Both the position numbers and the translations under genes were made by a program. Below the pieces are notes generated by a model, which was given only the letters and a program-made list of their open reading frames with translations, ran no database searches and was not told the origin of the DNA. Below are positions 23,216-46,995 of a stretch of DNA of 64,000 nucleotides, in pieces; within the stretch, counting starts at the first letter, position 1, and each line of letters starts with the position of its first letter. This stretch comes from Parcubacteria group bacterium M6-OD1-4 (GTDB taxonomy: Bacteria; Patescibacteriota; Patescibacteriia; Patescibacteriales; UBA12465). Location: positions 188,630-252,629 of the forward strand of contig LSNS01000004.1 in assembly GCA_003056205.1 (NCBI GenBank). Reading direction: 5' to 3'.

Positions 23216-23290
23216 GCGGGTGTCGTATAGTGGTTATTATGTCAGCTTCCCAAGCTGAAGAGGGCGGTTCGATTCCGCTTACCCGCTCCA
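23216..23290 (+). tRNA. tRNA-Gly (anticodon CCC), CCA encoded
   Basis: GCGGGTGTCGTATAGTGGTTATTATGTCAGCTTCCCAAGCTGAAGAGGGCGGTTCGATTCCGCTTACCCGCTCCA has an anticodon stem TCAGC/GCTGA with loop TTCCCAA. Confidence 0.85.
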
Positions 23291-23305: not shown

Positions 23306-23381
23306 GCCGAGATAGCTCAGTTGGTAGAGCGACGCACTCGTAACGCGTAGGTCAGGGGTTCGACCCCCCTTCTCGGCTCCA
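23306..23381 (+). tRNA. tRNA-Thr (anticodon CGU), CCA encoded
   Basis: GCCGAGATAGCTCAGTTGGTAGAGCGACGCACTCGTAACGCGTAGGTCAGGGGTTCGACCCCCCTTCTCGGCTCCA has the anticodon loop CTCGTAA and closely resembles canonical bacterial tRNA-Thr. Confidence 0.85.
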
Positions 23382-23886: not shown

Positions 23887-25482
23887 CTAACGTGATTTTG
23901 GAGTAACCGAAAAGCCCATATATTTACCAAACATCAAACGAATTTGGGCTTCTAAACAAGGGATAGCGCCAAAAATAATAATAGTTATTGGCACAAAGGC
24001 CCATTCAACAAAAATTATAATATTCTTTAAAACTGTATATTTCTTCGGTCGCGGCGGTAACAAAAGAACTGAAATTACTCCAGAAAGAATTAAGCCAATC
24101 ATGGCGATACTCATTAAGTTTTGAGTAATCATTGGCAAATTACCAGAAAGAACCATAGAATTAAAACGATTCCCTCCTAAAAAGAGTGGTAACCAACCAA
24201 TAACAGCAATAATTAAAGCATTGGTCGCCCAAGAATAGAAACCATAAATTTGAATAAAAATATGGCCGACAACACGTTTTTTATCAAAGCCTTTATTTTT
24301 CCAACGTTGAGCAGTATTAAATAATAAATAAGGAATATTTTCTCCACCCCAAGCCCATCGTCGTTGTTGTTTATATAAACTTTTAGCAGTCTTTAAATAA
24401 TTTTGATCACAAGTAACATCCATGGAAACCTTATAATTAATAGGTTCCACCCGATAATGACCGTTATAATACATTAAACAGTGCCAAAAAATACGCGAGT
24501 CTTCAGAAACATTAGCTGTTGACCAAAAACCAATCTCTACTAAAGCTTTCCAGGTCATAGAATGAGAAGAATAAGTCACCAAGCTTTCCTGCCGAATCTG
24601 CATAATCATCTGCCAAAAAGTATTAGAAGCAGCGGCTACCCGAGAAAAAAATGGTGAGTTCCAAATATTATTATGATAAACTGGAACGGGCTGGTAACTA
24701 GCGTGATAAGGATCATCAACGCTTAAAAATTTATATGTTAAAGCAAAAAAGTAACCGGGATAAACCACGGTATCAATATCAAAAACACTAACTAAAATTT
24801 TAGAATAATCTAATTGTTCACGATCAATTATTTCTTTTTTAATAACTCGAGCCGACCACGCTTGATTAGCCCCCTTTCCTTTTAATTCACCAGGAAGATG
24901 ATCGGGGTGCCAAGTAATAATGAAATGCCCAAACTGCTGAGCAAATTCTTGTTGAATGGCGGCAGCTCGTTCGTGAGCAGCTGTTCCTGCTCGCTCTTCC
25001 ATTGCTAAAGCAATAATCATCCGTGCTGGCGGATAACCATCTTTCAGTAAAGAAATTAAAGAAGATCGAATTATCTCTAAACTTTCATTATAATTAGGCA
25101 AAATAATTAATTGCCATAAATCGTCGGTAGAAACCCCCTGACGCGCTAAACATTTCGCAGCAATATCGGAAGAGTCAAATTGTTTATCTTTTAACTTTTG
25201 GCACGCTAAACGCCAATTAACTCGCAAACCTTTTTGTAATTGATAATAAGAACCAATTAAAAAAATAGCTAGATAAAGAACTAACAACAACCAATAAACA
25301 TCGAAAGCAATAATGAAGTAAGCCACCCAAACCGGCTCAAAATAAGATAAAATAATTAAAACTAATAAAGAAAAGATTGATAAAAACCCAGGTAGTATCT
25401 CCAATAAACGATAAATAGTATAATAACGACCGCTTAAATCTGTCGCTTTACCAATTTTAAGATAATTAACAATTGAGTTCAT
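23887..25482 (-). CDS. Membrane-embedded processive family 2 glycosyltransferase (cellulose/chitin-synthase-like)
   Basis: 531 aa with N- and C-terminal TM bundles flanking a GT-A domain. The domain has LPNYNES, DID and the processive-synthase signature QxxRW (QQRRWAWG). Confidence 0.7.
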   Translation of the reverse strand: MNSIVNYLKIGKATDLSGRYYTIYRLLEILPGFLSIFSLLVLIILSYFEPVWVAYFIIAFDVYWLLLVLYLAIFLIGSYYQLQKGLRVNWRLACQKLKDKQFDSSDIAAKCLARQGVSTDDLWQLIILPNYNESLEIIRSSLISLLKDGYPPARMIIALAMEERAGTAAHERAAAIQQEFAQQFGHFIITWHPDHLPGELKGKGANQAWSARVIKKEIIDREQLDYSKILVSVFDIDTVVYPGYFFALTYKFLSVDDPYHASYQPVPVYHNNIWNSPFFSRVAAASNTFWQMIMQIRQESLVTYSSHSMTWKALVEIGFWSTANVSEDSRIFWHCLMYYNGHYRVEPINYKVSMDVTCDQNYLKTAKSLYKQQRRWAWGGENIPYLLFNTAQRWKNKGFDKKRVVGHIFIQIYGFYSWATNALIIAVIGWLPLFLGGNRFNSMVLSGNLPMITQNLMSIAMIGLILSGVISVLLLPPRPKKYTVLKNIIIFVEWAFVPITIIIFGAIPCLEAQIRLMFGKYMGFSVTPKSR

Positions 25483-25484
25483 AG

Positions 25485-26054
25485 TTAAATAATATTTTTC
25501 CTTTTCAATTCAAAAAAACATTTAGCACAAGCCCGCACATCAACACTAGCATCATGAGCATCGGGAAAACTAGTTTTAAATAAACAATTATAAAGTTCAG
25601 TTAAATTAGGCCACTTATAACCATAACGCCCTGGCAAACGACAATAAGCAACACTTTTTTTCATGGTACAAATCTCTTGAGCCTTAATTAATGGATTATC
25701 TAAACCCACTCGGAGAAGCTCGGAACCAATAATTTTTTTATCAAAATCAATATTATGAGCCACTAAATAAGAACTTTGTCGAACATCACGTAAGAAATAA
25801 TTTAAGGCTAATTTTAATTCGATCCCTTCTCGCATAGCCTGTTCTTGAGAAATATGATGAATTTTAGTAGCTTCTTCAGGAATCACAAAACCTTCCGGTT
25901 TAATTATATAATTATAAGTTTCCCAAGCCCCGCCGTCAGCATCATATAAATTCCAAGCTAATTGTACCAAACGAGGCCAATTCAAAAAATCATCAAGAGG
26001 CGCTTGATAATTACGAGGCAAACCAGTTGTCTCTGTATCAAAAACTAAATACAT
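25485..26054 (-). CDS. DnaQ-like (DEDDh) 3'-5' exonuclease
   Basis: Exo I is VFDTETTGL, Exo II is AHNIDFD and Exo III is HDASVD. Confidence 0.85.
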   Translation of the reverse strand: MYLVFDTETTGLPRNYQAPLDDFLNWPRLVQLAWNLYDADGGAWETYNYIIKPEGFVIPEEATKIHHISQEQAMREGIELKLALNYFLRDVRQSSYLVAHNIDFDKKIIGSELLRVGLDNPLIKAQEICTMKKSVAYCRLPGRYGYKWPNLTELYNCLFKTSFPDAHDASVDVRACAKCFFELKRKNII

Positions 26055-26056
26055 AA

Positions 26057-27925
26057 TTAAAAATTATTATTGTTGATAGTAATTTCTTCACCTTCTTGTA
26101 ATTCTCGTTCCTGGAGTTGGCCACGAGCTAAGGAATTATCAGTTTTTACAGCTCGCCCACGAAAATCTTGAGGAGTCATTTTCTTTAAATCATTTAAAGA
26201 TAACTCGGGACCAGCGGAAAGAATTTTTTTCCGTTCCTGCTCTTTAGCTAACTGACGAGTAGCTAATTCATCACGTTTTTCTTTTTTTTTCTTGCTTAAA
26301 CATTCCCGGCAATAAATCGGACGAAGACCATCGGGCTCAAAATTTACAATTGTCTCTTGCCCACAAATACTACAAACCGTTTGATAACCATGTTCAATCT
26401 TAGATTCCAAAGGTGCTCGGGTAGATAATAATTGAGGGTTATTATTTACTTTCGGATGAGAATCATTTTGGGAATTAAAATGAGGCTGAACCGAAGAATG
26501 AGGACGAGACTGGATATTAGAAGTAGATTGCGAATGAGAATTTAGGGAAGAATTCAAATTAGAATGAGACGGCGACACTCTTGACGAAGTTTTTAAATTA
26601 GTAATATTATTTTTTCTTTTAGCTAACACTTTAGTATCATCCTGATTATAATTTTCATGCCAACTCATAATCTTCTCTTCGACCGTTTCTCGATCAGAAG
26701 CATATTTTTCACGAGAATAATCAATTACTTTCTGAACATTATGAGTTTCTTGAGCTTTGCTAAATGGTGGTAAACCCAGGGCAGAAAAGGGTGTAGAAGA
26801 TATTCCATCAATCATGAGCTTTAAATACATCTCATACTTTGGTAAATTAACCAAATCTTCTTCAGTAAAAGTTGGCGTAAATTCCTTCACCAATTCCTCG
26901 GCATCAGTTGCTCCCACCCGAAAAACAACCATTGTCCCAACGTTACCAAAAACCGCTGGTTTAACTTTTTCGCTTAATTGTTCAATATACTGGTGAGCTA
27001 AAATTAAATTCAAGCGATATTTTCGAGCCTCAGATAGAATATTAGCAAAACTATCAGTAGAAAAATTTTGAAATTCATCAATATATAAATAAAAATCTCG
27101 ACGATTTTCTTCAGGAACATCTACTCGACTCATCGCTGCTAATTGAATTTTAGTAATCATCATTGCTCCTAAAAGAGCCGAATTATCCTCGCCAATTCGT
27201 CCTTTTGACAAATTCATAATTAATACCTTACCCTGATCCATAATCTCCCGAATATCAATTGAAGAGCGAACTTGCCCAATAACATTCCTCATTAAAGAAC
27301 TAGAAAGAAACTGCCCAACCTTATTTTGAATTGGAGAAACTGCTTCCGAGGCAAAACGATCGGCATAACTAGAAAACTCTTTTTCCCAAAAAGCTTTTAC
27401 TACAGGATCTTTAATATTGGCTACAACTCGTTTCCGATAATTTTTATCAGATAACATCCGAACGACCCCCAATAGAGTGGAGCCCGGGAAATCTAAAATT
27501 GCTAAAATAGCATTACGCAAGATATACTCCAAACGTGGCCCCCAAGAATCAGCCCATAATTTTTGAAAAACACCAATTAAACCTGAGGCTACTAAATGCC
27601 GTAAATGAGGCTCAACTTGTTCCACGACATTAAAAGCAATTGGATAATCAATATCCGAAGGATTAAAATACACAATATCTTTAATACGCTCGGACGGAAT
27701 GTATTTCACAATTCTTTCAGCTAAATCACCATGAGGGTCAACAACTGCCACGCCATAACCAGCTCGAATATCATTAACAATCATATTCTCCAGAACTGTT
27801 GACTTACCCATACCAGTTTTCCCAATCAAATACATATGCCGACGACGATCATCAGTTTTGATACCAAATTTTTTAAATTTGTTACGGTAAGTAGTTTGAG
27901 CAAAAACCGCAATATCTTGATTCAT
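26057..27925 (-). CDS. Soluble FtsK/HerA-superfamily ATPase of the VirD4/TraD (type IV coupling protein)-like type, with a C-terminal CxxC-x17-CxxC zinc ribbon
   Basis: Walker A is IGKTGMGKST and Walker B is LYIDEFQNF. RKYRLNLILAHQYIEQL is a coupling-protein-like segment. No TM helix is seen. A low-complexity S/N/Q linker is followed by CSIC-17 aa-CREC (nt ~26300-26374) and a K/E-rich tail. Confidence 0.65.
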   Translation of the reverse strand: MNQDIAVFAQTTYRNKFKKFGIKTDDRRRHMYLIGKTGMGKSTVLENMIVNDIRAGYGVAVVDPHGDLAERIVKYIPSERIKDIVYFNPSDIDYPIAFNVVEQVEPHLRHLVASGLIGVFQKLWADSWGPRLEYILRNAILAILDFPGSTLLGVVRMLSDKNYRKRVVANIKDPVVKAFWEKEFSSYADRFASEAVSPIQNKVGQFLSSSLMRNVIGQVRSSIDIREIMDQGKVLIMNLSKGRIGEDNSALLGAMMITKIQLAAMSRVDVPEENRRDFYLYIDEFQNFSTDSFANILSEARKYRLNLILAHQYIEQLSEKVKPAVFGNVGTMVVFRVGATDAEELVKEFTPTFTEEDLVNLPKYEMYLKLMIDGISSTPFSALGLPPFSKAQETHNVQKVIDYSREKYASDRETVEEKIMSWHENYNQDDTKVLAKRKNNITNLKTSSRVSPSHSNLNSSLNSHSQSTSNIQSRPHSSVQPHFNSQNDSHPKVNNNPQLLSTRAPLESKIEHGYQTVCSICGQETIVNFEPDGLRPIYCRECLSKKKKEKRDELATRQLAKEQERKKILSAGPELSLNDLKKMTPQDFRGRAVKTDNSLARGQLQERELQEGEEITINNNNF

Positions 27926-27948: not shown

Positions 27949-28194
27949 CTATTTTAAGAAACTTCGGTAATTTTTTATAAAATCTCGAATAACTGGTGGT
28001 AAATAAATAAAACCTAAAACAATTGGGATTAAAATTAACAAAAATCTTAAAATACTCCAAATCTGCTGCCATTTAATATATTGCTTGGTTTTTTTAGAAA
28101 TAGCAAGAATCTCTTCGTTTTTTTGAAGATTTAACTTTAATAGACGCTTCAAATCATCAATATCTGAAGGTTTATTTTGATTTTCATTATCCAT
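27949..28194 (-). CDS. Small membrane protein, unknown function
   Basis: 81 aa with a charged N-terminus and one or two hydrophobic helices (IWSILRFLLILIPIVLGFIYLPPVI). Confidence 0.45.
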   Translation of the reverse strand: MDNENQNKPSDIDDLKRLLKLNLQKNEEILAISKKTKQYIKWQQIWSILRFLLILIPIVLGFIYLPPVIRDFIKNYRSFLK

Positions 28195-28202
28195 AGACTA
28201 AA

Positions 28203-28922
28203 TTACTGACGAAGCTCACAAAGATTAACATATTTCTTACCAATATTAACAAAATTTGTCATTTCTTGAGAAGTATAAGAATCGCGAGCTTGGTATTTTT
28301 TATCAACTAACGGCGTATCTGACTTAAAAGACTGTAAATACCATTTACTTGCCCCTTGGATAGCTTTCCCCATCGCAATAAAATCATCAGCATTCAATAA
28401 ACCAGGAACAACCGTCGTCCGAAATTCATAGGGTAAACCACTAGACATTATAATCTTAACACTTTTTTTTAAATTATTACAATTAATCGGAACATCAACA
28501 ACCGTTTTATATTTAGCAAAGGGAGCCTTAATGTCCATTGCTAAATAATCAATAAGTTTTTGTTGTAATAATTCTTTCAACATTACAGGATTGGTGCCAT
28601 TAGTATCTAATTTTACTAAGTATCCGAGGTCCTTAATTCTCTTAATAAAAGATGGCAAATCAGGATGTAAGGTGGGTTCACCACCAGTAATAACTACCCC
28701 TTCTAAGCGACCAAATCTTTTTTTCAAAAAAAGAAAAAGATTCTCAACTGTTAAGGGTGAATCTTTTTCTTTATTTTTATCATCCAGTCCCTGATGGGGC
28801 AGGACAAGCAAAGGGTTATAACAAAAGTGACATCGGAAATTACAACCTTGCGTAAAGATAATCGCCGCTAAATGATCGGGGTAGTCGAGAAGAGTTAACT
28901 TCTCTAAACCACCAATAATCAT
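28203..28922 (-). CDS. nrdG: Anaerobic ribonucleoside-triphosphate reductase activating protein (radical SAM)
   Basis: Radical-SAM CxxxCxxC motif (CNFRCHFCYN) and the SAM-binding segment GVVITGGEPT. It lies downstream of nrdD. Confidence 0.9.
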   Translation of the reverse strand: MIIGGLEKLTLLDYPDHLAAIIFTQGCNFRCHFCYNPLLVLPHQGLDDKNKEKDSPLTVENLFLFLKKRFGRLEGVVITGGEPTLHPDLPSFIKRIKDLGYLVKLDTNGTNPVMLKELLQQKLIDYLAMDIKAPFAKYKTVVDVPINCNNLKKSVKIIMSSGLPYEFRTTVVPGLLNADDFIAMGKAIQGASKWYLQSFKSDTPLVDKKYQARDSYTSQEMTNFVNIGKKYVNLCELRQ

Positions 28923-28940
28923 AAAATTTGAAATTAAAAA

Positions 28941-29087
28941 TTAATTATTATTTTGACAAGTTTGATAAGTCTGGCGATCAGTAAACTCGGAAGCTTTCCC
29001 AGGATTCCAGTTTTTTGTTGGTGTTAACCAACCAACAACTCGACTATAAATAATACATTCTTGTCTCTGACTTTTAATTGGGCTCAT
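28941..29087 (-). CDS. 48-aa ORF encoding the NrdD C-terminal glycyl-radical motif as a separate polypeptide
   Basis: Below the ORF-track cutoff. ATG at 29087-29085 and TAA at 28943-28941. The translation is MSPIKSQRQECIIYSRVVGWLTPTKNWNPGKASEFTDRQTYQTCQNNN. The segment YSRVVG[WY]..P...WN.GK..EF..R is the class III RNR glycyl-radical signature. Confidence 0.7.
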   Translation of the reverse strand: MSPIKSQRQECIIYSRVVGWLTPTKNWNPGKASEFTDRQTYQTCQNNN

Positions 29088-29129
29088 ATATTTGTAATTA
29101 TTAAATTAATAAATTAAATTATAAACAAA

Positions 29130-31232
29130 TTATTTTCTAACATTTTTTTCTTTAGTCACTACGGTAGTTTTATTCTCAATATTACTGATATGAACTGGAT
29201 TCTCCCCAGCTTTTTCTTTATAACCAATCTCTTCATCACACTTTGGACAATACTTATGTTCCCCAGATAGATAACCATGCTTAGGACAGATGGAAAAAGT
29301 AGGGGTAATTGTAAAATATGGTAAACGATAATTTTCCACAATCTTTTTAACTAATTTCTTGGCCGCATTACCATTTGGTAAGCGTTCACCAATGAAGCCG
29401 TGAAGAACTGTGCCACCAGTATATTTAACCTGTAAATCATCTTGTAAATCAAGAGCGGAAAAAATATCGTTAGTAAATCCTACTGGTAAATGTGATGAAT
29501 TAGTATAATAAGGAGCAGTGCCATTAGCTTTAAAGGCTTCAGTATTGGCACAAATAATTCCAGGATAAAGTTCTTGATCTTTCTTGGCAAAACGATAAGT
29601 CGTACCTTCGGCTGGGGTGGCTTCTAAATTATAAAGATTATTAGTTTCATTTTGAAAGTCCATTAAGCGCTCACGCATATAGTCTAGCACTTCTGAAGCA
29701 AATTCTCGACCCTCGGGAGTTGACACATCTTGACCGATTAAATTTACTGCTGCTTCATTCATTCCATTAATACCAATGGTAGAAAAATGATTTTGCCAAT
29801 AAGAATTAAATTTTTCTTTAATATCGCTTAAATAATAAATAGAATAAGGGTATAAACGATCTTCACTAAATTTTTCAAGAATCTTTCTTTTAATTTCTAA
29901 ACTTTCTTTCGCTAATTCCATTAATTCTAAAACCCGTTTTTTAAATTGTTCTTTGTTTTTCGATAAAAAACCAATTCGCGGTAAATTAATGGTTACTACG
30001 CCAATAGAACCAGTTAAGGGATTAGCTCCAAATAAACCACCACCACGCTTGCGCAATTCACGATTATCTAAACGTAAACGGCAACACATTGAACGAGCAT
30101 CATCACGTTTCATGTCTGAGTTCACAAAATTAGAAAAATAAGGAATACCATATTTAGCTGTCATTTCCCAAGCGGGTTTTAAGCATTCTCGATCCCAATC
30201 AAAATCTTTATCGATACAATAAGTGGGAATTGGAAAACCAAAAACTCGACCAGTAGAATCACCAGCCAACATCACTTCGGCAAAAGCTTGATTGAAAACA
30301 TCCATTTCAGCTTGAAAATCTTTATACTTTTCAGGTTGAGGTTGGCCACCAATAATTACACTTTCTTCACCAGTCATCGGTGATGGAGTAACATCTAAAG
30401 TAATATTGGTAAAAGGAGTTTGAAATCCTACCCGAGTCGGAACATTGATATTAAACATGAATTCTTGTAAACCCTGCTTAACCTCTTTATAACTTAGATG
30501 ATCATAACGAATAAATGGTGCTAAATAAGTATCAAAATTAGCAAAAGCTTGAGCACCAGCTGCTTCACCCTGCATCGTGTAAAAGAAATTAATTATTTGT
30601 CCGAGAGCACTACGAAAATGTTTTGGAGGGTTACTCTGGACCTTTTCATCAACGCCACGAAAACCACGAATTAATAAATCTTTTAAATCCCAACCACAAC
30701 AATAGGGGGCTAAAAGCCCTAAATCATGAATATGTAAATCGCAATTAATATGGGCTAAACGAATATTTTCAGGATATAATTTATCTAACCAATAGCGTGC
30801 TGAAATCGCTGAAGAGATATAATTATTCAAACCTTGAACCGAAAAGCTCATATTACTATTTTCCTTTAATCGCCAATCTGCTCGTCCTAAATAATCTTCC
30901 ATTAGCTTATCGTTGACAGTCGCCGTATTAATATTACGTAACTGACGATGCTGATCACGATATAAAATATAAGACTTAGCAATTTTAATCAATTTATTCT
31001 CAATTAAAATTCCTTCAACGATATCTTGAACTTCTTCTACGGCTGGAATACTATGTTGATGGAATTTTTTATTAAGTCGTTCTACTACTTGTTTAGTCAA
31101 CTTCTCAGCAAGTTGCCGATCATCAACTTCAACTGCTAAGCCCGCCTTATAAATGGCAGTGACGATTTTATCTTGATTAAATTCACTAACTTCGCCAGAA
31201 CGTTTAATCAACTTGCTAATGGTTTCAGACAT
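29130..31232 (-). CDS. nrdD: Anaerobic (class III) ribonucleoside-triphosphate reductase large polypeptide with an ATP-cone, lacking the glycyl-radical motif
   Basis: 700 aa with an N-terminal ATP-cone (VIKRSGEVSEFNQDKI...YILYRDQHR). The catalytic barrel has the CCRLRLD thiyl loop, and a C-terminal zinc site reads CPKH-x10-CPKC. The ORF then ends in a K/E/T-rich tail without RVxG. Confidence 0.9.
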   Translation of the reverse strand: MSETISKLIKRSGEVSEFNQDKIVTAIYKAGLAVEVDDRQLAEKLTKQVVERLNKKFHQHSIPAVEEVQDIVEGILIENKLIKIAKSYILYRDQHRQLRNINTATVNDKLMEDYLGRADWRLKENSNMSFSVQGLNNYISSAISARYWLDKLYPENIRLAHINCDLHIHDLGLLAPYCCGWDLKDLLIRGFRGVDEKVQSNPPKHFRSALGQIINFFYTMQGEAAGAQAFANFDTYLAPFIRYDHLSYKEVKQGLQEFMFNINVPTRVGFQTPFTNITLDVTPSPMTGEESVIIGGQPQPEKYKDFQAEMDVFNQAFAEVMLAGDSTGRVFGFPIPTYCIDKDFDWDRECLKPAWEMTAKYGIPYFSNFVNSDMKRDDARSMCCRLRLDNRELRKRGGGLFGANPLTGSIGVVTINLPRIGFLSKNKEQFKKRVLELMELAKESLEIKRKILEKFSEDRLYPYSIYYLSDIKEKFNSYWQNHFSTIGINGMNEAAVNLIGQDVSTPEGREFASEVLDYMRERLMDFQNETNNLYNLEATPAEGTTYRFAKKDQELYPGIICANTEAFKANGTAPYYTNSSHLPVGFTNDIFSALDLQDDLQVKYTGGTVLHGFIGERLPNGNAAKKLVKKIVENYRLPYFTITPTFSICPKHGYLSGEHKYCPKCDEEIGYKEKAGENPVHISNIENKTTVVTKEKNVRK

Positions 31233-31233
31233 A

Positions 31234-31692
31234 TTATTTTTTTTCTTTAATTAATTTATTTAATTCTTTACGAAATTCATGAGCGTCTTTGAATGATTCA
31301 TAAACCGAGGCATAACGAATATAGGCGACTGGATCAACTTTTTTTAAGTTTTTCATTACTATCTGCCCAACTTGCAAGGAGGTAATTTCACTACTTTTTA
31401 AACGTTGCAAATCCCGTTCAATGGTATGAATCAATTTTTTAAAACGATCTTTAGTAATAGCCCTTTTCTCACAAGATTTCTTCAGACCACTTACCATTTT
31501 GTCACGATTATAAGATTCTCGCCGTCCATCTCGTTTGACAATCGCTAAATCAAGTAATTCTATCTCTTCATAAGTGGAAAAACGAAAACTACACTTTAAA
31601 CATTCCCGACGACGACGAATTGAAAGACCATCCGGAGCAACTCGCGAATCAACAACCTTAGTATCATTAAAATAACAAATTGGACATTTCAT
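31234..31692 (-). CDS. nrdR: Transcriptional repressor NrdR
   Basis: It starts MKCPICYFNDTKVVDSR with a second Cys pair in CLKC (zinc ribbon), followed by an ATP-cone (VKRDGRRESYNRDK). Confidence 0.95.
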   Translation of the reverse strand: MKCPICYFNDTKVVDSRVAPDGLSIRRRRECLKCSFRFSTYEEIELLDLAIVKRDGRRESYNRDKMVSGLKKSCEKRAITKDRFKKLIHTIERDLQRLKSSEITSLQVGQIVMKNLKKVDPVAYIRYASVYESFKDAHEFRKELNKLIKEKK

Positions 31693-37889: not shown

Positions 37890-38804
37890 TTATTCCGCTT
37901 TCCGCCGAGTTAAATTATCCCAAATCACTAAAACCGGACTAGCAATAAAGATAGAGCTATAAGTACCAACAAAGATTCCCACAATTAAGGCCAGAGCGAA
38001 ATCCTTAATAGTGCTTCCTCCGAAGAAAAGAACAGCTAATAAAGCTAAAATTGCTGAAAACGAAGTATTAATTGAACGAGTAATAGTTTGGTTAACGCTC
38101 CGATTGACAGTATTTTCAAAATCTTCCTGACTCTTTGGTAAATTTTCTCTAATTCGATCAAAAACAATAATCGTATCACTAACACTATAACCGAGGACGG
38201 TAAGAATGGCAGCAATAAATGGCGTATTTATTTCAATACCATAGAAATGTCCCAAGACGGCAAAGACTCCCAGAGTAAAGATAACATCATGAATTAAAGC
38301 AATAATAGCGGCCACTCCATACTTCCAAGAAGAAACTGGCTTAGAAACCCGCCGAAAAGCAAAAGAAATGAAGAGGATAATCATGATAAAAGCAATCGCC
38401 ACGGCATTAAAAGATTTACTTTTTAATTCTTGACCAATTGAGGGACCAACCGAATCAAATTGCAATTGCTTAAAGGTCGCTCCTTGATGACCAACTGTTA
38501 AGCTACTTAATTTACCAAGAACAGCTTGATGAACAGCTTCAGTATTTTCTTGAAAACGTAAAATAATAGAATGTTTATTCGTCGGTTGAACCACTAAACT
38601 GTGTAAATGCACTCCTTGCAAACTACTTTCAATAGCAGTAATACTTGGTTGATATTTAGTGAATTGAACTTCCAACAAACTTCCACCAGTAAAATCAATA
38701 CCAAAATTTAAACCCCAAAAAATTAAAGCCAAAATCGAAGCAACAATTGCTAAGCTGGAGAGCGTCATAAATATTTTTCGAGATTGAATTATCCGATAAG
38801 TCAT
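37890..38804 (-). CDS. secF: Protein translocase subunit SecF
   Basis: GIDFTGGSLLEV, six TM helices and DTIIVFDRIREN. Confidence 0.92.
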   Translation of the reverse strand: MTYRIIQSRKIFMTLSSLAIVASILALIFWGLNFGIDFTGGSLLEVQFTKYQPSITAIESSLQGVHLHSLVVQPTNKHSIILRFQENTEAVHQAVLGKLSSLTVGHQGATFKQLQFDSVGPSIGQELKSKSFNAVAIAFIMIILFISFAFRRVSKPVSSWKYGVAAIIALIHDVIFTLGVFAVLGHFYGIEINTPFIAAILTVLGYSVSDTIIVFDRIRENLPKSQEDFENTVNRSVNQTITRSINTSFSAILALLAVLFFGGSTIKDFALALIVGIFVGTYSSIFIASPVLVIWDNLTRRKAE

Positions 38805-38840
38805 ATAATTAAATTAGCAAATTAAAAATAAAATTTTAGA

Positions 38841-40520
38841 TTATTCAGCAATTTTACTGCGACGAACGCCTAATAGCCAAGTTCTCTTTTCTAACCAATC
38901 TCCGAGAATAACTACAAACAAGGTATGGGTAACAACAATGGCACTAAAGAGTGAAACGGAGATTCCAATAAATAGAGTCGTTCCAAAACCTTTCACTGTT
39001 GAAGTCCCAAAGAACATTAAGATCAAACAAGTAATTAAAGTGGAAAGGTTTCCATCGCGAATTGATGGCCAAGCTCGTTTAAAACCGTCGTTAACAGCTT
39101 GAGTTACCGATTTACCAGCTTTAAGTTCTTCCCGAGTTCGAGAAAAAATTAAAATATTAGCATCAACTGCCATTCCAATAGAAAGAATAAATCCAGCGAT
39201 ACCTGATAAAGATAGCGTTACTGGTTTGAGAGCATAGAAGAATAATATAAAACCAATCGCAATAAACAAAGCGGCCAAAGAACCATTAAAAATCTTTAGC
39301 TCATTGAAAGTATAGAAAATTAGACCAATCATAATGACCACTAAAATCAGGGCTAACCAAATAGGAATGGATTTGAAAATAGCTAGAACAGTTAGACCAT
39401 AAACTAAGAGAGATAAAACAGAAAGAAATCCTGGAAGACGATAATAGAGAATCATAAACAAAGAAACTAAAAGTAAACCAATTAAACCGGCACGCAGACT
39501 ATTATCAATTGATTTGGAACCTAAGCTAGCACCAATAGTTTTTTGGGAAATTAAAGTAATTGGGACTGGCAATGCTCCAGAATTTAATCGTGAAACTAAA
39601 GACTTCGCCTCTTTAATATTAAAATGTCCAGAAATAACAGCTTGTCCACCAGTAATTTCTTCATTAACTGTCGGAGCACTAATTACTCGACCATCTAAGA
39701 AAATGGCTACTGGCTTACCAACGTTCCGCGCGGTAATTTTAGCAAACAATTTAGCACCAGCCGAATCAAAGTTTAAAGCTACTTCCGGCGAACCATCTCG
39801 TTGATTAAATTGAATTGAGGCTCGTTGTAAATATTTCCCAGTCAGCTCGGTATTTTTCCAAGCAATGGTTTGTGGATTATTAGCAGTTGCCGGAAGAGAA
39901 GATGAGGAAAATGTCCCGGGCTGTACGGCCACTGAACCCGCCAAAGACTTAACTGTCTTTAAAGAATTACTTGCTGAAGAACTAGTTGAATTATTAGAAA
40001 CGGGAACGACGGATAATTTAACTTTTGGTGTTGTTGCTGATAATTTTCGACTAGCTTCTTCCTTAAATTGTAAAACTGGTGTTTCGCCAATAACTTTAAT
40101 TGCTTGTCGAACATCTTTAATGCCTGCTAACTCAGCGATGACTTGATAATTACCCTGAACATCACGATTAACAGTAACAACGGGCTCACTAACTCCAAAA
40201 GTATTCACTCGACGTTCAATAATATCTCTTGCTGAACTCAAGGCACTAGCCCTTTCTCCAGCCGGAATATTCTTCACATTAGCTTGATAAACCAAATAAG
40301 AACCTCCCTGTAAATCCAAGCCGAGATGAAAAGGAATTGGTTTTACCATTGGTAGAATAACGATATCATTAGTTTTCCGAGCCAATTCTTTCACCGAATT
40401 ATTATAAGAACTTCCGCCAACAATTAAACCGATAGTAATGACGAAGAGGACAATCAAACCGAGAATCCACCAAGATTTAGCGCGCAGTGGTAACTTAGAA
40501 AATTTTTGAATTAATGACAT
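38841..40520 (-). CDS. secD: Protein translocase subunit SecD
   Basis: LGLDLQGGSYLVY, a large periplasmic domain and a C-terminal six-TM bundle with DANILIFSRTREE. The start is set at MSLIQKF (ATG 40520); the track ORF extends to 40586. Confidence 0.92.
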   Translation of the reverse strand: MSLIQKFSKLPLRAKSWWILGLIVLFVITIGLIVGGSSYNNSVKELARKTNDIVILPMVKPIPFHLGLDLQGGSYLVYQANVKNIPAGERASALSSARDIIERRVNTFGVSEPVVTVNRDVQGNYQVIAELAGIKDVRQAIKVIGETPVLQFKEEASRKLSATTPKVKLSVVPVSNNSTSSSASNSLKTVKSLAGSVAVQPGTFSSSSLPATANNPQTIAWKNTELTGKYLQRASIQFNQRDGSPEVALNFDSAGAKLFAKITARNVGKPVAIFLDGRVISAPTVNEEITGGQAVISGHFNIKEAKSLVSRLNSGALPVPITLISQKTIGASLGSKSIDNSLRAGLIGLLLVSLFMILYYRLPGFLSVLSLLVYGLTVLAIFKSIPIWLALILVVIMIGLIFYTFNELKIFNGSLAALFIAIGFILFFYALKPVTLSLSGIAGFILSIGMAVDANILIFSRTREELKAGKSVTQAVNDGFKRAWPSIRDGNLSTLITCLILMFFGTSTVKGFGTTLFIGISVSLFSAIVVTHTLFVVILGDWLEKRTWLLGVRRSKIAE

Positions 40521-40605
40521 AATGTTAAGAAATTGACTATTTTTAAAATTTAGTTTTATCTTAGAATAAATAAGAATAAAAATCAAGGGTTCATTGCCGT
40601 CCTAC

Positions 40606-43995: not shown

Positions 43996-46995
43996 TTAAT
44001 TATAAGGTGGTCCTGTATTATTATAAGTATTAATAGTAGTTATATTACCCTGACTATCTAAACCGAAGACGTGCCAATAACAACTAGTTTGAGTCGGATT
44101 AGCATGATAAACTTTAGTAATCCCGTTATGACTATCATAAATAGTAACTGTCGTAGTCCCGAAAGGTATCTCGGAAGAACCATAACCACAAGCGGAATAA
44201 TTAAAAACATCATATTTATAATTATTAGCAATATATTTTTGAATTCTAATATTCTCTGGACCATAACCACTCTGAACATCAATATCAAGACTAGAAGAAG
44301 CAACATTATGATTTTGATACCAAACATGGTAGCTAGTACCAAAAGTTAAATGAGAATCTAAATCTCGAGGCGAAGCACCCCAAGTTAAACTAATCTTATT
44401 AGTTCCCTGGTAACTCGGGGTAGACATAATAAAATTAATAATTTTGCTAAGTCGGGGATCAAAACTTTGGATAGTGTTGTCATAACCATATAAAGAAGCA
44501 GTTGCCGTGTAAGAGCCAGAATAAGAAGGACTGACAGGAGGAATCGTCAATGAATACTTCCCTTGCGAATCAGTAGTAGTTTGCGTAATAATATTTCCCT
44601 GGCCGCCAACTACTATTTTAACTCCAGGAAGAGTTTTGCTCGGATGAGCATAATAAGCATAACTATTCACCGTTCCAGTAATAATTACAGCTTCAGGATT
44701 ATCAGCGCATGCTCCACAATCTTGGGCACAACTATTACAAGTCTCCAAAGACTTATTGCTAGCACTCAAGGCCTGGCAATAGCCGTCACCACAATAACCG
44801 CCACCTTGTAACGGTGAAGAAAAAATACATTGGTCATTGGTTAAAATAGGATAAGGGGTTTGAGCGCCGACACCAGTCTGACAAGCATATTGTAGGTGAA
44901 CATTACTCAAAGTGGGATTGGCAGTAATTCCGCTCAGACCATCACAAGATTCATTACCATCATTATTAAAGCCACCAGAACCTTCAGAATTTGGAGCTTC
45001 TTTTCGTCCGTCACCACAATAAGTATTTACTGTTAATTTAAAACGATAAACAGCTTGAGCTTTATATTGATTTGTCGCCTGAATTGTAATTGGAAAACTG
45101 CCCGCCACAGTTGGAGTCCCAGTAAGACCGGAATCACTAATACTTAATCCAGCGGGCAAACCACTGGCAGAATAAGTAACTTTATTAATCAGAGGAAATG
45201 AGCAATTATAGACATTACTAATACGGGTTATTGTTGAGCAATTAATATTTAAACCTAAATGACTAGGAATAATTTTTAGACTAAAATCTTTGGTAACGGA
45301 ATTGCCATCAGCATCAGTAACTCGGATTCGATAAGTGAAATTTGCCCCTGATGATAATTTACTAATTGGTAATTGTTTTGCCTGATAAGTAATCTGATAA
45401 CGATAATTTCCTGTTGAACTAATAGTTCTCGTTAAACTAGACAAAAGATTAAATCCAGCTGGACCAGTTAATTGAGAAACGTAATAAGTATTTGGCTGAG
45501 AACTAGTAGTATACCGTGGTACAGATTTTAAAGCTCTTCCAGAAATAGAAAAATGATAACTAAATGGTAGATTAGAATCTAGAGCATATTCTCCATTACT
45601 GGCAGTGATAATTAATGATGAACTTAAAATAGTGATGGGTGTAACGGTTGATAAAGTTCCCCCACGACCATCTTTAACAGTTAAGAGCATCTGATAAGCT
45701 CCAGCGTTTCCAGCCGTCTCTGCAAAAACATTTTTTTGATTAAGACTACTAGTATTCTTCAAAATTGGCCAATGATTCTTTTGGCCAGCACTATTCCAAC
45801 CCGTCCAATTAGTAGTTACGGGACTAAGCGACCATGATAATGGATCGTGATTAGCATCTTGAACTTGAATAAAGCCATTAAATTCTTGACCAGTTTGACC
45901 AGTTAAAAATTTATTAACTAACACTGGTGGAATATTAGAACTTGTTCCCCCAGAAATAATTCCAGTGTCAATCACACACGCTGAACCTTGAGGATTAAGT
46001 GGATAAAAATTATAATTTAAGGCTTTAGTTTCTAAGCTGGCACATAAATTATAATCAGAACCAGTGCCATTGGAGGCATAAGCAAAAGCATAACTCCCAC
46101 GTGGTAAAATTAGAGTAGAATTACTGGGATTAGAAAAAAACTTTTTTGTTTGAGGGTTCCAACAAGTACTGGAATTATAACCAGTACAAGCCCCGAGATG
46201 ATTAATAGGATCAACTAAGCTCGGAGAAACCGCTAAATCAGAGAGAAGAACTTTTGACCAGCTGGGCCAAAGAGAAACAGAATTATGGGGTAAATAAGTA
46301 CCAGCTGACAAAAGAGGATAATGCTGATTTGTTAATTTAAAATTATTCAAGGCAATTTTAAGTTCAGTTAGAAGACCAACTCGTCGGACATCACGAGTAA
46401 CTTGAGATTTTAAACTATTACAGAAGAAACCCGTTGAACAGTCAGCATCACTTAAACAATCCTTAGGGGTTTTTAGTATACAAGTACTGGAAGCAGCTCC
46501 ACTAGTAGCACAATACTGGCCGGAAGAACAATCTGAATTACTAGTACAATTGAAAGTGGAGATAGAACAAGTCGCCGGAGCATTAAGAATATTAGAAGAT
46601 AGATTATTATTAAATTTCCAATGGGAAATAATTTGCCCTAAAATATCAACTGTCTTAGGGGCGGGATTCTGATTATAGGAAATTAAATAAATATTGGTAT
46701 AAATGATTTTGGTAGTCGGATTAACATTGGCCGCATTAACATAAACCGTGCGACCATCACGAATAGCTTGATAACCATCCACAACTAGAGATTGAGGCGA
46801 CCCCTGGAAACCTTGATTGGCATACCAACGATCAATACTATAGTGATTAGGATTGGGAATAATTCGTACCGCAATAGCGTCGGGGCTAGCGATAATACTG
46901 GCAGATTGAGCTCGAGAATACTGTCGCCAACTAAATAAAAAAACAAAAACTAAAATTATAGTAAAGAGTAAAAATTTTTTATTTTTGTTAATCAT
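43996..46995 (-). CDS. Large secreted cysteine-rich multidomain protein (Ig-like, carboxypeptidase-regulatory-like and DUF2135/YfaP-like segments)
   Basis: 999 aa with a signal peptide. It has a 'putative Ig' pattern (GLPAGLSISDSGLTGTPTVAGSFPITIQATN) and a CarboxypepD_reg-like pattern (ITGTV...LPGVKIVV...TTDSQGKYSL). The C-terminus (PRDLDSHL...LDIDVQSGYGPENI) recalls DUF2135. These are motif-level calls only. Confidence 0.7.
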   Translation of the reverse strand: MINKNKKFLLFTIILVFVFLFSWRQYSRAQSASIIASPDAIAVRIIPNPNHYSIDRWYANQGFQGSPQSLVVDGYQAIRDGRTVYVNAANVNPTTKIIYTNIYLISYNQNPAPKTVDILGQIISHWKFNNNLSSNILNAPATCSISTFNCTSNSDCSSGQYCATSGAASSTCILKTPKDCLSDADCSTGFFCNSLKSQVTRDVRRVGLLTELKIALNNFKLTNQHYPLLSAGTYLPHNSVSLWPSWSKVLLSDLAVSPSLVDPINHLGACTGYNSSTCWNPQTKKFFSNPSNSTLILPRGSYAFAYASNGTGSDYNLCASLETKALNYNFYPLNPQGSACVIDTGIISGGTSSNIPPVLVNKFLTGQTGQEFNGFIQVQDANHDPLSWSLSPVTTNWTGWNSAGQKNHWPILKNTSSLNQKNVFAETAGNAGAYQMLLTVKDGRGGTLSTVTPITILSSSLIITASNGEYALDSNLPFSYHFSISGRALKSVPRYTTSSQPNTYYVSQLTGPAGFNLLSSLTRTISSTGNYRYQITYQAKQLPISKLSSGANFTYRIRVTDADGNSVTKDFSLKIIPSHLGLNINCSTITRISNVYNCSFPLINKVTYSASGLPAGLSISDSGLTGTPTVAGSFPITIQATNQYKAQAVYRFKLTVNTYCGDGRKEAPNSEGSGGFNNDGNESCDGLSGITANPTLSNVHLQYACQTGVGAQTPYPILTNDQCIFSSPLQGGGYCGDGYCQALSASNKSLETCNSCAQDCGACADNPEAVIITGTVNSYAYYAHPSKTLPGVKIVVGGQGNIITQTTTDSQGKYSLTIPPVSPSYSGSYTATASLYGYDNTIQSFDPRLSKIINFIMSTPSYQGTNKISLTWGASPRDLDSHLTFGTSYHVWYQNHNVASSSLDIDVQSGYGPENIRIQKYIANNYKYDVFNYSACGYGSSEIPFGTTTVTIYDSHNGITKVYHANPTQTSCYWHVFGLDSQGNITTINTYNNTGPPYN

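What the first reader, a model, noticed from the sequence alone, without database searches (positions are those of the whole stretch)
25485..27925. Soluble VirD4/TraD-like FtsK-HerA ATPase with a CxxC-x17-CxxC zinc ribbon, translationally coupled to a DnaQ-like exonuclease
Seen in sequence:
- The 622-aa ATPase has Walker A and B motifs and coupling-protein-like segments, but no TM helix.
- After a ~90-aa S/N/Q/H low-complexity linker it carries CSIC-(17 aa)-CREC, then a Lys/Glu-rich tail.
- Its stop codon begins 2 nt after the start codon of a 189-aa DEDDh exonuclease gene.
- An 81-aa membrane protein lies just upstream and a processive GT2 just downstream.

Established knowledge: canonical type IV coupling proteins are membrane-anchored. 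The CxxC-x17-CxxC module is a named small domain that occurs as a C-terminal add-on to other proteins.

Inference: several roles are possible for this pair.
- A DNA translocase/processing pair for DNA uptake or secretion.
- An FtsK-like chromosome-segregation function, given that the neighbourhood is rich in division genes.
- An ATPase-plus-nuclease defence pair.

None of these can be decided from sequence alone.
Basis: partly seen in the sequence, partly recalled or inferred. Interest (0 to 1): 0.55.

Follow-up and report, generated by a model that had tools for sequence, protein, structure and literature searches.

The report
Conserved VirD4-like ATPase of Patescibacteria
The ATPase is this lineage's copy of a very strongly conserved, still uncharacterised VirD4/TrwB-like motor found in nearly all Patescibacteria, and the exonuclease beside it is a lineage-specific neighbour, not a co-conserved partner.

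Summary
The genes are real, but they do not overlap: TAA, 2 nt, then ATG. The same spacing joins the exonuclease to the GT2 gene.

The 622-aa protein is a coupling-protein (T4CP) homologue. It has no TM helix and carries an S/N-rich linker, a CxxC-x17-CxxC zinc ribbon and a charged tail.

It belongs to a large Patescibacteria family. ATPase domains are 59-90% identical across 80 genomes, at least as conserved as FtsZ. The family sits in core-genome synteny, not in a defence island.

The exonuclease lies next to the ATPase in 18 of 74 loci, all in one clade. A nested subclade of 7 lacks it. None of the 49 loci outside the clade has it within 10 kb.

The recurrent partner is a different, upstream protein, DUF8128:
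- It is single-pass, ~420-570 aa, and present in 45 of those 49 loci.
- It is fused to the ATPase in 70 of 150 cluster representatives.
- Its model resembles the VirB4 N-terminal domain and the N-terminal halves of Bacillus phage proteins.

In the window's clade, DUF8128 and a sigma4/HARE-HTH gene are absent from the region examined. An 81-aa bitopic protein occupies the position.

Most likely this is a membrane-docked T4CP-like translocase. Substrate and role are unproven.

The parts
27949..28194 (-). 81-aa bitopic protein ('TM81'): N-terminal charged helical region, one TM segment (aa ~42-73). It holds the position immediately upstream of the ATPase that DUF8128 holds in other Patescibacteria.
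   Evidence: ORF. Hydropathy peak 2.58. Same-position homologues with the shared motif YI.WQ...-TM-YLPP occur in about 20 loci of the window's clade. No significant Pfam or NCBIfam hit.
26057..27925 (-). 622-aa T4CP-like (VirD4/TrwB-family) P-loop ATPase with a C-terminal zinc ribbon; coordinates include the stop codon.
   Evidence: More than 8000 homologues; the top 120 are 65-90% identical with the same architecture, and every hit that carries a source name is a Patescibacteria MAG.
26651..27925 (-). ATPase domain (aa 1-425), with a helical insert between Walker A and Walker B.
   Evidence: Pfam TrwB_AAD_bind over aa 22-344. hhalign to TrwB: 96.9% probability, E 2e-10, 271 columns. hhalign to pGO1 TrsK: 87% over 294 columns. 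The 9 best Foldseek hits are TrwB, DotL and Cag-beta, but the model is low-confidence.
27800..27826 (-). Walker A, GKTGMGKST (aa 35-43)
   Evidence: Read from the sequence. G35, G38, G40 and K41 are invariant across 32 diverse orthologues.
27068..27094 (-). Walker B, FYLYIDEFQ (aa 278-286)
   Evidence: Read from the sequence. D283, E284, F285, Q286, N287 and F288 are invariant.
26390..26650 (-). S/N/Q/H-rich low-complexity linker (aa 426-512); length and sequence vary between orthologues.
   Evidence: Composition. The consensus is unresolved in this region. pLDDT is below 50.
26285..26386 (-). CxxC-x17-CxxC zinc ribbon (aa 514-547; C518, C521, C539, C542).
   Evidence: TIGR04272 at 2.7e-13 and PF23477 at 2.8e-12. 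The four Cys and the internal F.PDG.RP motif are conserved. Block pLDDT is 85-91 over about aa 511-560. Present in 60 of 74 genome loci. Archaeal small proteins with the same domain bind zinc (PMC12704099).
26060..26284 (-). Charged tail (aa 548-622) with two conserved short motifs: DFRGR (aa 587-591) and the near-terminal EGEEITI (aa 611-617).
   Evidence: The motifs recur as PVDFRGR and (E/P)G(E/Q)x(I/V)xF in most orthologues.
25485..26054 (-). 189-aa stand-alone DEDDh (DnaQ-like) 3'-5' exonuclease. It starts 2 nt after the ATPase stop codon. It is a lineage-specific neighbour.
   Evidence: RNase_T at 7e-11. PADLOC DEDDh at 1e-27 and phrog_192 at 1e-34. All NCBIfam DnaQ/PolC models score far below their cut-offs. 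Adjacent to the ATPase in 18 of 74 loci and found nowhere else in the 80 loci.
23887..25482 (-). 531-aa membrane-embedded family-2 glycosyltransferase. It starts 2 nt after the exonuclease stop codon. It follows the ATPase, directly or one gene further on, in more lineages than the exonuclease does.
   Evidence: Glyco_trans_2_3 at 6.6e-9. TM segments at both ends. GT2 lies downstream of the ATPase in the window's clade, in L025-L038 and in L054/L063.

Best explanation
The 622-aa protein is this lineage's orthologue of a vertically inherited, near-universal Patescibacteria ATPase of the type IV coupling protein (VirD4/TrwB) family.

Shown:
- It has the T4CP nucleotide-binding domain but lacks the T4CP transmembrane anchor.
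- Across most of the Patescibacteria sampled, the gene lies directly after, or is fused to, DUF8128.
- DUF8128 is a single-pass membrane protein. The model of its soluble domain resembles the VirB4 N-terminal domain.
- The zinc ribbon and two tail motifs are widespread family features.
- In the window's clade, DUF8128 and the upstream sigma4/HARE-HTH gene are absent from the region examined. A small bitopic protein occupies the upstream position, and a DnaQ-like exonuclease sits in the variable slot between the ATPase and a GT2 gene.

Inferred:
- The ATPase works like a coupling protein: a ring-shaped NTP-driven motor held at the cytoplasmic face of the membrane. Elsewhere DUF8128 would dock it; here the 81-aa protein possibly does.
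- The zinc-ribbon and charged tail recruit a substrate, most likely nucleic acid or a nucleoprotein complex, which the motor moves.
- The exonuclease is co-transcribed in this clade, but it is not a required partner of the motor.
For: Family identity:
- Pfam TrwB_AAD_bind scores 47 bits against a cut-off of 20.5.
- hhalign to TrwB gives 96.9% probability over 271 columns. To VirB4 (TrwK) it gives only a P-loop match at 4.8%. To pGO1 TrsK it gives 87% over 294 columns.
- A profile search of the PDB ranks TrwB first (2e-7), then DotL (8e-7).
- The 9 best Foldseek hits are T4CPs.

Distribution and conservation:
- More than 8000 hits.
- 24,415 cluster representatives at E<1e-3 and 7,214 at E<1e-30.
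- ATPase-domain identity is 59-90% across 80 genomes of many classes.
- In L001 the ATPase domain is 90% identical, against FtsZ 86%, NrdD 87% and the exonuclease 75%. In L048 it is 62% against FtsZ 48%.
- A published survey found VirD4-type homologues in 2,918 of 3,035 Patescibacteria genomes. Only 148 of 5,713 lie near virB4 (PMC12102498).

Partner:
- DUF8128 is found upstream of the ATPase in 45 of 49 loci outside the window's clade. It is the immediately preceding gene in 43 of them, mostly with gaps of 2-40 nt.
- It is fused N-terminally in 70 of 150 representatives.
- The DUF8128 model has a core pLDDT of 80-93. Its 14 best PDB hits are all TrwK/VirB4 chains (E 2e-5 to 5e-3).
- It also matches phage G gp156 and phage JL proteins (E 3e-15, 2e-13). 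Those same proteins carry the ATPase domain.

Exonuclease not a partner.

Core-genome context.
Against: - No experiment exists for any member of the family. Hexamer formation, membrane docking and the substrate are all inferred by analogy.
- The VirB4-like fold of DUF8128 rests on Foldseek alone, with TM-scores of 0.29-0.34. hhalign against the single sequences TrwK and TrsD found nothing.
- The ATPase model itself is poor, with mean pLDDT 57.
- The Southlakia homologue is reported as non-essential (PMC12102498). This fits poorly with such strong conservation, unless paralogues compensate.
- Within the window's clade the exonuclease is retained in 18 of 25 loci with 3-10 nt gaps in most. A clade-specific functional link is therefore not excluded.
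- I could not check whether DUF8128 is encoded elsewhere in the genomes of the window's clade.
Confidence: 0.6

Rival explanations
1. The ATPase is the missing coupling protein of the patescibacterial type IV secretion system. It is encoded away from the virB4 cluster, acts in trans, and feeds substrate to (or receives it from) that essential machine.
For: - It has the T4CP fold and sequence family.
- The Southlakia T4SS cluster lacks a recognisable coupling protein (PMC10633639).
- T4CP genes are often encoded far from virB4 (PMC12102498).
- The DUF8128 partner has a VirB4-N-terminal-like model, which could dock on VirB3/VirB6-type components.
- The window encodes two giant proteins with T4SS_pilin domains.
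Against: - Only 148 of 5,713 homologues lie near virB4. The Southlakia homologue was non-essential although the T4SS genes were essential.
- The T4CP homologue is found in 2,918 of 3,035 genomes, while 2,474 virB4 genes were found in the same set.
- No relaxase or VirB4 gene lies in the 64-kb window.
- The N-terminal TM anchor is absent.
Confidence: 0.2
2. In the window's clade the ATPase and the DEDDh exonuclease form a real two-component module. The motor threads DNA or RNA taken up from outside or from a host, and the exonuclease trims or degrades it to nucleotides.
For: - There is a 2-nt gap on the same strand.
- The adjacency is kept in 18 of 25 clade loci, mostly with gaps of 3-10 nt.
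- The exonuclease is itself well conserved, at 65-81% identity among the top 120 hits.
- On the neighbour-joining tree the exonuclease appears at the same node where DUF8128 is replaced by the small TM protein.
- Patescibacteria depend on scavenged nucleotides, and the uptake route is unresolved (bioRxiv 10.64898/2026.06.21.733656).
Against: - A nested subclade of 7 loci lacks the exonuclease, yet the ATPase keeps its zinc ribbon and tail motifs.
- None of the 49 loci outside the clade has any homologue within 10 kb, even with an HMM at E<=0.01.
- The slot holds unrelated genes in sister lineages.
- The same 2-nt spacing links the exonuclease to GT2, so tight packing is not specific to the pair.
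- No fusion of the two was seen among 270 listed homologues.
Confidence: 0.12
3. It is an FtsK-like chromosome-segregation or division-linked DNA pump.
For: - It belongs to the same ATPase superfamily.
- It is core and strongly conserved.
- In this window it lies in one strand-string with FtsA, FtsZ, DivIC and a D,D-carboxypeptidase.
Against: - No FtsK_SpoIIIE or gamma-domain match at E<=0.01.
- The profile ranks T4CPs first.
- The division-gene neighbourhood exists only in this clade. In L048 and L070 FtsZ lies about 9 kb upstream, and elsewhere the flanking genes are SecF, the HTH protein, DUF8128, pgk and EF-P.
- The Southlakia homologue is non-essential.
Confidence: 0.05
4. It is an ATPase-plus-nuclease anti-phage defence pair.
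For: - PADLOC models mad8 (2e-15), HerA (3e-11) and cas-associated DEDDh (1e-27) give hits.
- HerA-type ATPases do partner with nucleases or Sir2 in known defence systems (PDB hits).
Against: - The hits are generic domain matches, and no other MADS or HerA-system component is present.
- The neighbours are housekeeping genes.
- The ATPase tree follows the gene-order clades.
- The protein is more conserved than FtsZ, which is the opposite of typical defence-gene behaviour.
- The pair is not co-conserved.
Confidence: 0.03

Closest known systems
Type IV coupling proteins (TrwB of R388, VirD4, TraD, DotL, Cag-beta, TrsK of pGO1)
   Same: - The nucleotide-binding domain is homologous, including the region that holds the all-alpha insert. 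The hhalign match to TrwB covers aa 22-320 at 24% identity.
- T4CPs are the best sequence and fold matches.
   Different: - There is no N-terminal TM anchor.
- There is no linked relaxase or VirB4 gene.
- It is chromosomal, core and near-universal in a phylum, not carried by mobile elements.
- It has a C-terminal zinc ribbon and conserved tail motifs.
- Its usual partner or fusion domain is DUF8128.
- It scores far below all NCBIfam TraD cut-offs (47 against 366 bits).
VirB4 (TrwK) and the split TrsD + TrsE pair of pGO1
   Same: - DUF8128 plus ATPase has the same two-part layout: a membrane-associated N-terminal domain followed by a C-terminal P-loop motor.
- The layout occurs either fused or as two adjacent genes, as with TrsD and TrsE.
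   Different: - The motor domain matches T4CPs across its length, not VirB4. Against TrwK only the P-loop aligns, and against TrsE only 98 columns align.
- No sequence similarity between DUF8128 and TrwK or TrsD was detected.
- In this window DUF8128 is missing.
phrog_5156: Bacillus phage G gp156 and Herelleviridae (SPO1-like) 'VirD4 component-like' proteins
   Same: - phrog_5156 matches at 3e-70 over its positions 407-818.
- tblastn identity is 25-30% across the ATPase domain.
- The N-terminal halves of these phage proteins match the DUF8128 model at E 3e-15 to 1e-12.
   Different: - The phage proteins are single fused polypeptides (825-913 aa). The one read in full (SP8, 906 aa) has no zinc ribbon.
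- Their function is also unknown.
- Sequence similarity of the N-terminal domain is not significant by hhalign.
FtsK/SpoIIIE and HerA-NurA
   Same: - They belong to the same P-loop superfamily.
- There is a DUF87/HerA central-domain hit at 30 bits.
- Having a nuclease gene next door recalls HerA-NurA.
   Different: - There is no FtsK_SpoIIIE or gamma domain.
- No NurA is present; the neighbour is a DEDDh exonuclease.
- HerA structures rank below T4CPs.
DnaQ / PolC-type DEDDh proofreading exonucleases (for the 189-aa gene)
   Same: - It has the RNase_T fold family and all five DEDDh residues.
- The best NCBIfam alignments are to the PolC and DnaQ exonuclease domains.
   Different: - It is a stand-alone 189-aa protein.
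- It scores 37-41 bits against equivalog cut-offs of 186-1043.
- No polymerase-binding extension was identified.

Membership tests
Type IV coupling protein (VirD4/TrwB/TraD) | P-loop nucleotide-binding domain homologous to TrwB/VirD4 | tested here: met
   PF10412 scores 47 bits against a cut-off of 20.5. hhalign to TrwB gives 96.9% probability, E 2e-10. TrwB and DotL are the top PDB profile hits.
Type IV coupling protein (VirD4/TrwB/TraD) | All-alpha domain inserted between Walker A and Walker B | tested here: inconclusive
   The alignment to TrwB runs through this region, and the model shows helices at aa 99-230. Confidence in the model there is only 40-76.
Type IV coupling protein (VirD4/TrwB/TraD) | N-terminal transmembrane anchor | tested here: not met
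   Walker A starts at aa 35, and no hydrophobic segment qualifies as a TM helix.
Type IV coupling protein (VirD4/TrwB/TraD) | Genetic linkage to a relaxase and/or a VirB4 mating-pair-formation cluster | tested here: not met
   Neither gene is in the 64-kb window. Across the phylum only 148 of 5,713 homologues lie near virB4 (PMC12102498).
Type IV coupling protein (VirD4/TrwB/TraD) | Reaches a curated TraD/T4CP family cut-off | tested here: not met
   SXT_TraD scores 47.5 against 366. TOL TraD scores 30.5 against 648. F-type TraD scores 17.9 against 521.
Type IV coupling protein (VirD4/TrwB/TraD) | Hexameric, DNA-stimulated ATPase that recruits transfer substrates | not testable with these tools
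   This needs biochemistry.
Patescibacteria DUF8128-associated T4CP-like ATPases | Orthology of the ATPase domain | tested here: met
   59-90% identity to 80 genome loci. The window protein nests inside the family tree.
Patescibacteria DUF8128-associated T4CP-like ATPases | DUF8128 encoded immediately upstream or fused | tested here: not met
   The DUF8128 HMM finds nothing in the six-frame translation of the window, nor in the 25 loci of the window's clade. The rest of those genomes could not be searched.
Patescibacteria DUF8128-associated T4CP-like ATPases | C-terminal CxxC-x17-CxxC ribbon and tail motifs | tested here: met
   The ribbon is present in 60 of 74 loci.
FtsK/SpoIIIE | FtsK_SpoIIIE motor domain, gamma (KOPS-reading) domain, N-terminal membrane domain | tested here: not met
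   No Pfam match to either domain at E<=0.01. No TM helix.
HerA-NurA | HerA ATPase paired with a NurA nuclease | tested here: not met
   The DUF87 hit is weaker than the T4CP hit and overlaps it. The neighbour is a DEDDh exonuclease, not NurA.
Known anti-phage defence systems (PADLOC) | Complete set of system components in a variable island | tested here: not met
   Only single generic domain hits were found. The neighbours are FtsA/FtsZ, NrdRDG, DivIC, a D,D-carboxypeptidase and SecDF.
DEDDh (DnaQ-like) 3'-5' exonuclease | Exo I, II and III motifs with D, E, D, H, D | tested here: met
   DTET at aa 6-9, HNIDFD at aa 100-105, HDASVD at aa 167-172. PF00929 scores 43 bits against a cut-off of 24.
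DNA polymerase III epsilon / PolC proofreading subunit | Reaches an equivalog cut-off, or is linked to or fused with a polymerase | tested here: not met
   The best scores are 37-41 bits against cut-offs of 186-1043. No polymerase gene is adjacent.

The most novel reading that the evidence does not exclude
DUF8128 plus this T4CP-like ATPase, with the sigma4/HARE-HTH protein encoded upstream, could be a previously unrecognised machine found across the Patescibacteria. It would be independent of the type IV secretion system and would pull nucleic acid across, or along, the cytoplasmic membrane. That would make it part of the unresolved route by which these nucleotide-auxotrophic bacteria acquire host or environmental DNA or RNA. 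In the window's clade the machine would have been rebuilt with an 81-aa membrane anchor and a dedicated DEDDh exonuclease that processes the incoming strand.
Probability: 0.1. Interest if true: 0.85.

Novelty: new variant of a known kind. Interest (0 to 1): 0.45.

Why it matters
- Patescibacteria make up a large share of bacterial diversity and cannot make nucleotides. Published work leaves two questions open: how they take up host nucleic acid, and what their abundant 'orphan' coupling-protein homologues do.
- This ATPase is at least as conserved as FtsZ and is present in about 96% of genomes in a published survey. It almost always comes with an uncharacterised membrane partner, DUF8128, whose model looks like the VirB4 N-terminal domain.
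- I found no paper that mentions DUF8128.
- The module is well defined and testable: three genes, with cultivable Saccharibacteria available.
- The specific ATPase-exonuclease pair that prompted the finding is probably not a system in its own right.

Tried and rejected
- **ATPase structure.** AlphaFold2 with a 33-sequence alignment of about 75% identity gave a poor model (mean pLDDT 57). I used its fold hits only as support for the sequence evidence.
- **Sequence tests of the DUF8128 fold.** hhalign of the DUF8128 alignment against the single sequences TrwK, TrsD and the SP8 phage N-terminus gave no significant match. The VirB4-like fold therefore rests on Foldseek alone.
- **Viral contigs.** A scan with the single protein returned one locus at 34% identity. 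I did not pursue it.
- **Promoters and terminators.** The scan was uninformative in this AT-rich DNA.
- **HTH neighbour HMM.** My HMM was contaminated by SecF sequences, so its single window hit (SecF, 37893-38813) is not an HTH homologue.
- **Literature.** Searches for DUF8128, and for a phage role of the VirD4-like protein, found nothing useful.
- **Defence and FtsK readings.** Both were considered and rejected on context and profile evidence.
- **The 81-aa protein.** It gave only a sub-threshold Pfam hit (YukC), and I saw no obvious similarity to the DUF8128 N-terminus on inspection. I did not test it as a DUF8128 remnant by profile comparison.


Full report
**1. What is in the sequence**

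All genes of interest lie on the minus strand:
- an 81-aa protein at 27949..28194
- the 622-aa ATPase at 26057..27925
- a 189-aa exonuclease at 25485..26054
- a 531-aa GT2 at 23887..25482

The ATPase-to-exonuclease junction reads TTT-TAA-tt-ATG. The exonuclease-to-GT2 junction reads TAA-ct-ATG. The spacing is not special to the pair.

The rest of the description holds:
- Walker A is at aa 35-43 and Walker B at aa 278-286.
- There is no TM helix.
- An 87-aa S/N/Q/H-rich linker follows the ATPase domain.
- CSIC-17 aa-CREC matches TIGR04272 and PF23477.
- The tail is charged.
- The exonuclease has the full DEDDh set.

The window is AT-rich, at about 33% GC. Every homologue that carries a source name comes from a Patescibacteria (CPR) metagenome-assembled genome, several labelled Falkowbacteria.

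**2. Which ATPase family**

- Pfam gives TrwB_AAD_bind above its cut-off over aa 22-344, with weaker TraG-D_C and DUF87 hits.
- NCBIfam TraD models match only around the P-loop and score far below their cut-offs.
- A profile of 32 diverse orthologues ranks TrwB (2e-7) and DotL (8e-7) first in the PDB, ahead of HerA.
- hhalign aligns 271 columns to R388 TrwB (96.9%, E 2e-10) and 294 columns to pGO1 TrsK (87%).
- Against R388 VirB4 only the P-loop aligns. Against pGO1 TrsE only the last 98 columns align.
- The AlphaFold model is poor (pLDDT 57). Even so, its nine best Foldseek hits are TrwB, DotL and Cag-beta.

The motor is a coupling-protein homologue. It is not VirB4, FtsK or HerA.

**3. How widespread and how conserved**

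The top 120 are 65-90% identical and share the ATPase-plus-ribbon architecture.
- An exhaustive search of 50%-identity cluster representatives found 24,415 at E<1e-3 and 7,214 at E<1e-30.
- In 80 species-representative genomes the ATPase domain is 59-90% identical to the window's. Labelled lineages include Falkowbacteria, Magasanikbacteria, Uhrbacteria, Doudnabacteria, Wolfebacteria and Paceibacteria.
- That is at least as conserved as the neighbouring FtsZ. In L001 the values are 90% against 86%. In L048 they are 62% against 48%.
- A 2025 survey found VirD4-type homologues in 2,918 of 3,035 Patescibacteria genomes. Only 148 of 5,713 lie near virB4, and the Southlakia copy is non-essential. 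The authors left open that it was 'exapted for other functions' (PMC12102498).
- The original Southlakia study noted that the T4SS cluster lacks a recognisable coupling protein (PMC10633639).

**4. Is the exonuclease a partner?**

I called ORFs in all 80 loci and mapped the window's proteins onto them.
- The exonuclease is the gene directly downstream in 18 of 74 loci with a complete ATPase.
- An HMM built from 120 exonuclease homologues finds it nowhere else in these loci.
- On a neighbour-joining tree of the ATPase domain, the 18 loci fall in one clade of 25. That clade is defined by a small TM protein upstream of the ATPase.
- A nested subclade of 7 (L014, L017, L019, L020, L022, L023, L059) has ATPase followed directly by GT2. 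Their zinc ribbon and tail motifs are unchanged.
- In sister lineages the ATPase-to-GT2 slot holds a polytopic membrane protein or a PHP protein. Further out, the downstream genes include pgk, a DHH protein, EF-P and an HD-domain-like protein.

The exonuclease family is well conserved within the clade, at 65-81% identity. A clade-limited functional link cannot be excluded, and I give it about 0.12.

**5. The recurrent partner lies upstream**

- Outside the window's clade, 45 of 49 loci encode a ~420-570-aa protein upstream of the ATPase. It is the immediately preceding gene in 43 of them, mostly with gaps of 2-40 nt.
- The precomputed Pfam label for this protein is DUF8128, PF26449.
- In 70 of 150 cluster representatives this domain is fused to the N-terminus of the ATPase, giving proteins of about 750-1100 aa.
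- DUF8128 has one N-terminal TM segment, with basic residues after it. That places the large domain in the cytoplasm, consistent with the fusion.
- Its AlphaFold model (core pLDDT 80-93) has TrwK/VirB4 chains of the R388 T4SS as all 14 best PDB hits (E 2e-5 to 5e-3, TM 0.29-0.34).
- In the viral library it matches phage G gp156 (3e-15), a phage JL protein (2e-13) and phage Slash.
- gp156 and the JL protein also contain the ATPase domain, and phrog_5156 matches the window ATPase.
- Sequence-level tests of the VirB4 or TrsD relationship were negative. This point is therefore suggestive only.
- In 34 of 43 loci a sigma-70-region-4 plus HARE-HTH protein precedes DUF8128, and SecF often precedes that.
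- No paper in the library mentions DUF8128.

**6. What happened in this window**

The window's minus-strand gene order is:

SecD, SecF, a Wzy_C/TPR protein, a 255-aa protein, FtsA, FtsZ, NrdR, NrdD, NrdG, the 81-aa protein, ATPase, exonuclease, GT2, DivIC, D,D-carboxypeptidase.

- Compared with the common order SecF-HTH-DUF8128-ATPase, an eight-gene block sits where HTH and DUF8128 would be.
- The DUF8128 HMM finds nothing in the 64-kb window or in any locus of the window's clade.
- The 81-aa protein is conserved in that position throughout the clade.
- I could not test whether DUF8128 is encoded elsewhere in those genomes.

**7. Mechanism**

Shown:
- T4CP-type motor domain
- no TM anchor
- a conserved membrane partner or fusion elsewhere
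- a zinc-ribbon domain of a family shown to bind zinc in archaeal small proteins (PMC12704099)
- core-genome location

Inferred:
- The protein forms a ring ATPase at the membrane. It is docked by DUF8128 in most lineages, and possibly by the 81-aa protein here.
- The ribbon and tail bind a substrate or an adaptor.
- The substrate is a nucleic acid. This rests on analogy with T4CPs and on the adjacent HTH protein.

Whether it serves the T4SS in trans (about 0.2) or acts independently is open.

The defence reading (0.03) and the FtsK reading (0.05) fit neither the context nor the profiles.

**8. Verdict**

The interpretation as an ATPase-exonuclease system is not supported.

The ATPase is a member of a known but uncharacterised T4CP-like family. 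It is an unusual variant: anchor-less, zinc-ribbon-tailed, and in this clade without the family's usual DUF8128 partner nearby.

The family as a whole deserves experimental attention. The specific pair does not.

Noticed in passing
window 47038-51564(-), 51629-54337(-), 43996-46995(-): There are three giant surface-type proteins in a row. Two (1508 and 902 aa) have an N-terminal T4SS_pilin domain (PF18895) followed by Ig-like domains. The third (999 aa) has a He_PIG domain. No VirB4 gene is in the window.
   Followed up: partly
window 37890-40586(-) versus 26057-27925(-): SecD and SecF lie 10 kb upstream of the ATPase. In other Patescibacteria SecF is only two genes upstream. An eight-gene block (Wzy_C/TPR, a 255-aa protein, FtsA, FtsZ, NrdR, NrdD, NrdG and the 81-aa protein) sits where the sigma4/HARE-HTH and DUF8128 genes would be.
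   Followed up: yes
L038-L080 and L081, genes at -2 relative to the ATPase: A ~280-380-aa protein with an N-terminal sigma-70 region 4 and a C-terminal HARE-HTH precedes DUF8128 in 34 of 43 loci. It also precedes a fused DUF8128-ATPase in L081. It may be a third component of the module.
   Followed up: partly
L051, L055, L067 (gene +1 or +2); L081 5558-8116: Some lineages carry a second, tandem paralogue of the ATPase (~470-497 aa) or a second fused DUF8128-ATPase (852 aa). This is in line with about two T4CP homologues per genome in the published survey.
   Followed up: no
Bacillus phage G gp155/gp156; phages JL, CP-51, SP8 (L085 4747-7467): Jumbo and SPO1-like Bacillus phages encode 825-913-aa proteins with this ATPase domain at the C-terminus. 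For gp156, gp155 and the JL protein, the DUF8128 model also matches structurally. Their function is unknown.
   Followed up: partly
L084 7986-9173 (Sulfitobacter mediterraneus plasmid NZ_CP081110): A 395-aa homologue in an alphaproteobacterial plasmid is 41% identical to the window ATPase domain, well above the other listed plasmid hits except one fragmented Priestia match. Transposase and recombinase genes lie nearby. This may be a horizontal transfer.
   Followed up: no
window 26060-26284(-) and orthologues: Two short motifs in the otherwise variable tail are conserved across classes: PVDFRGR-like, and a near-terminal (E/P)G(E/Q)x(I/V)xF. They look like docking peptides.
   Followed up: partly
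window 23216-23290(+), 23306-23381(+): tRNA-Gly(CCC) and tRNA-Thr(CGU) lie on the plus strand between DivIC and the D,D-carboxypeptidase gene. They interrupt the long minus-strand gene string.
   Followed up: no
window 61073-63997(-): An AddA-like UvrD helicase with a C-terminal PD-(D/E)XK nuclease (974 aa) lies at the window's right-hand edge.
   Followed up: no
window 28203-31692(-): The anaerobic ribonucleotide reductase set NrdR-NrdD-NrdG sits directly between FtsZ and the ATPase locus. The clade keeps it in this position (L001-L024).
   Followed up: partly
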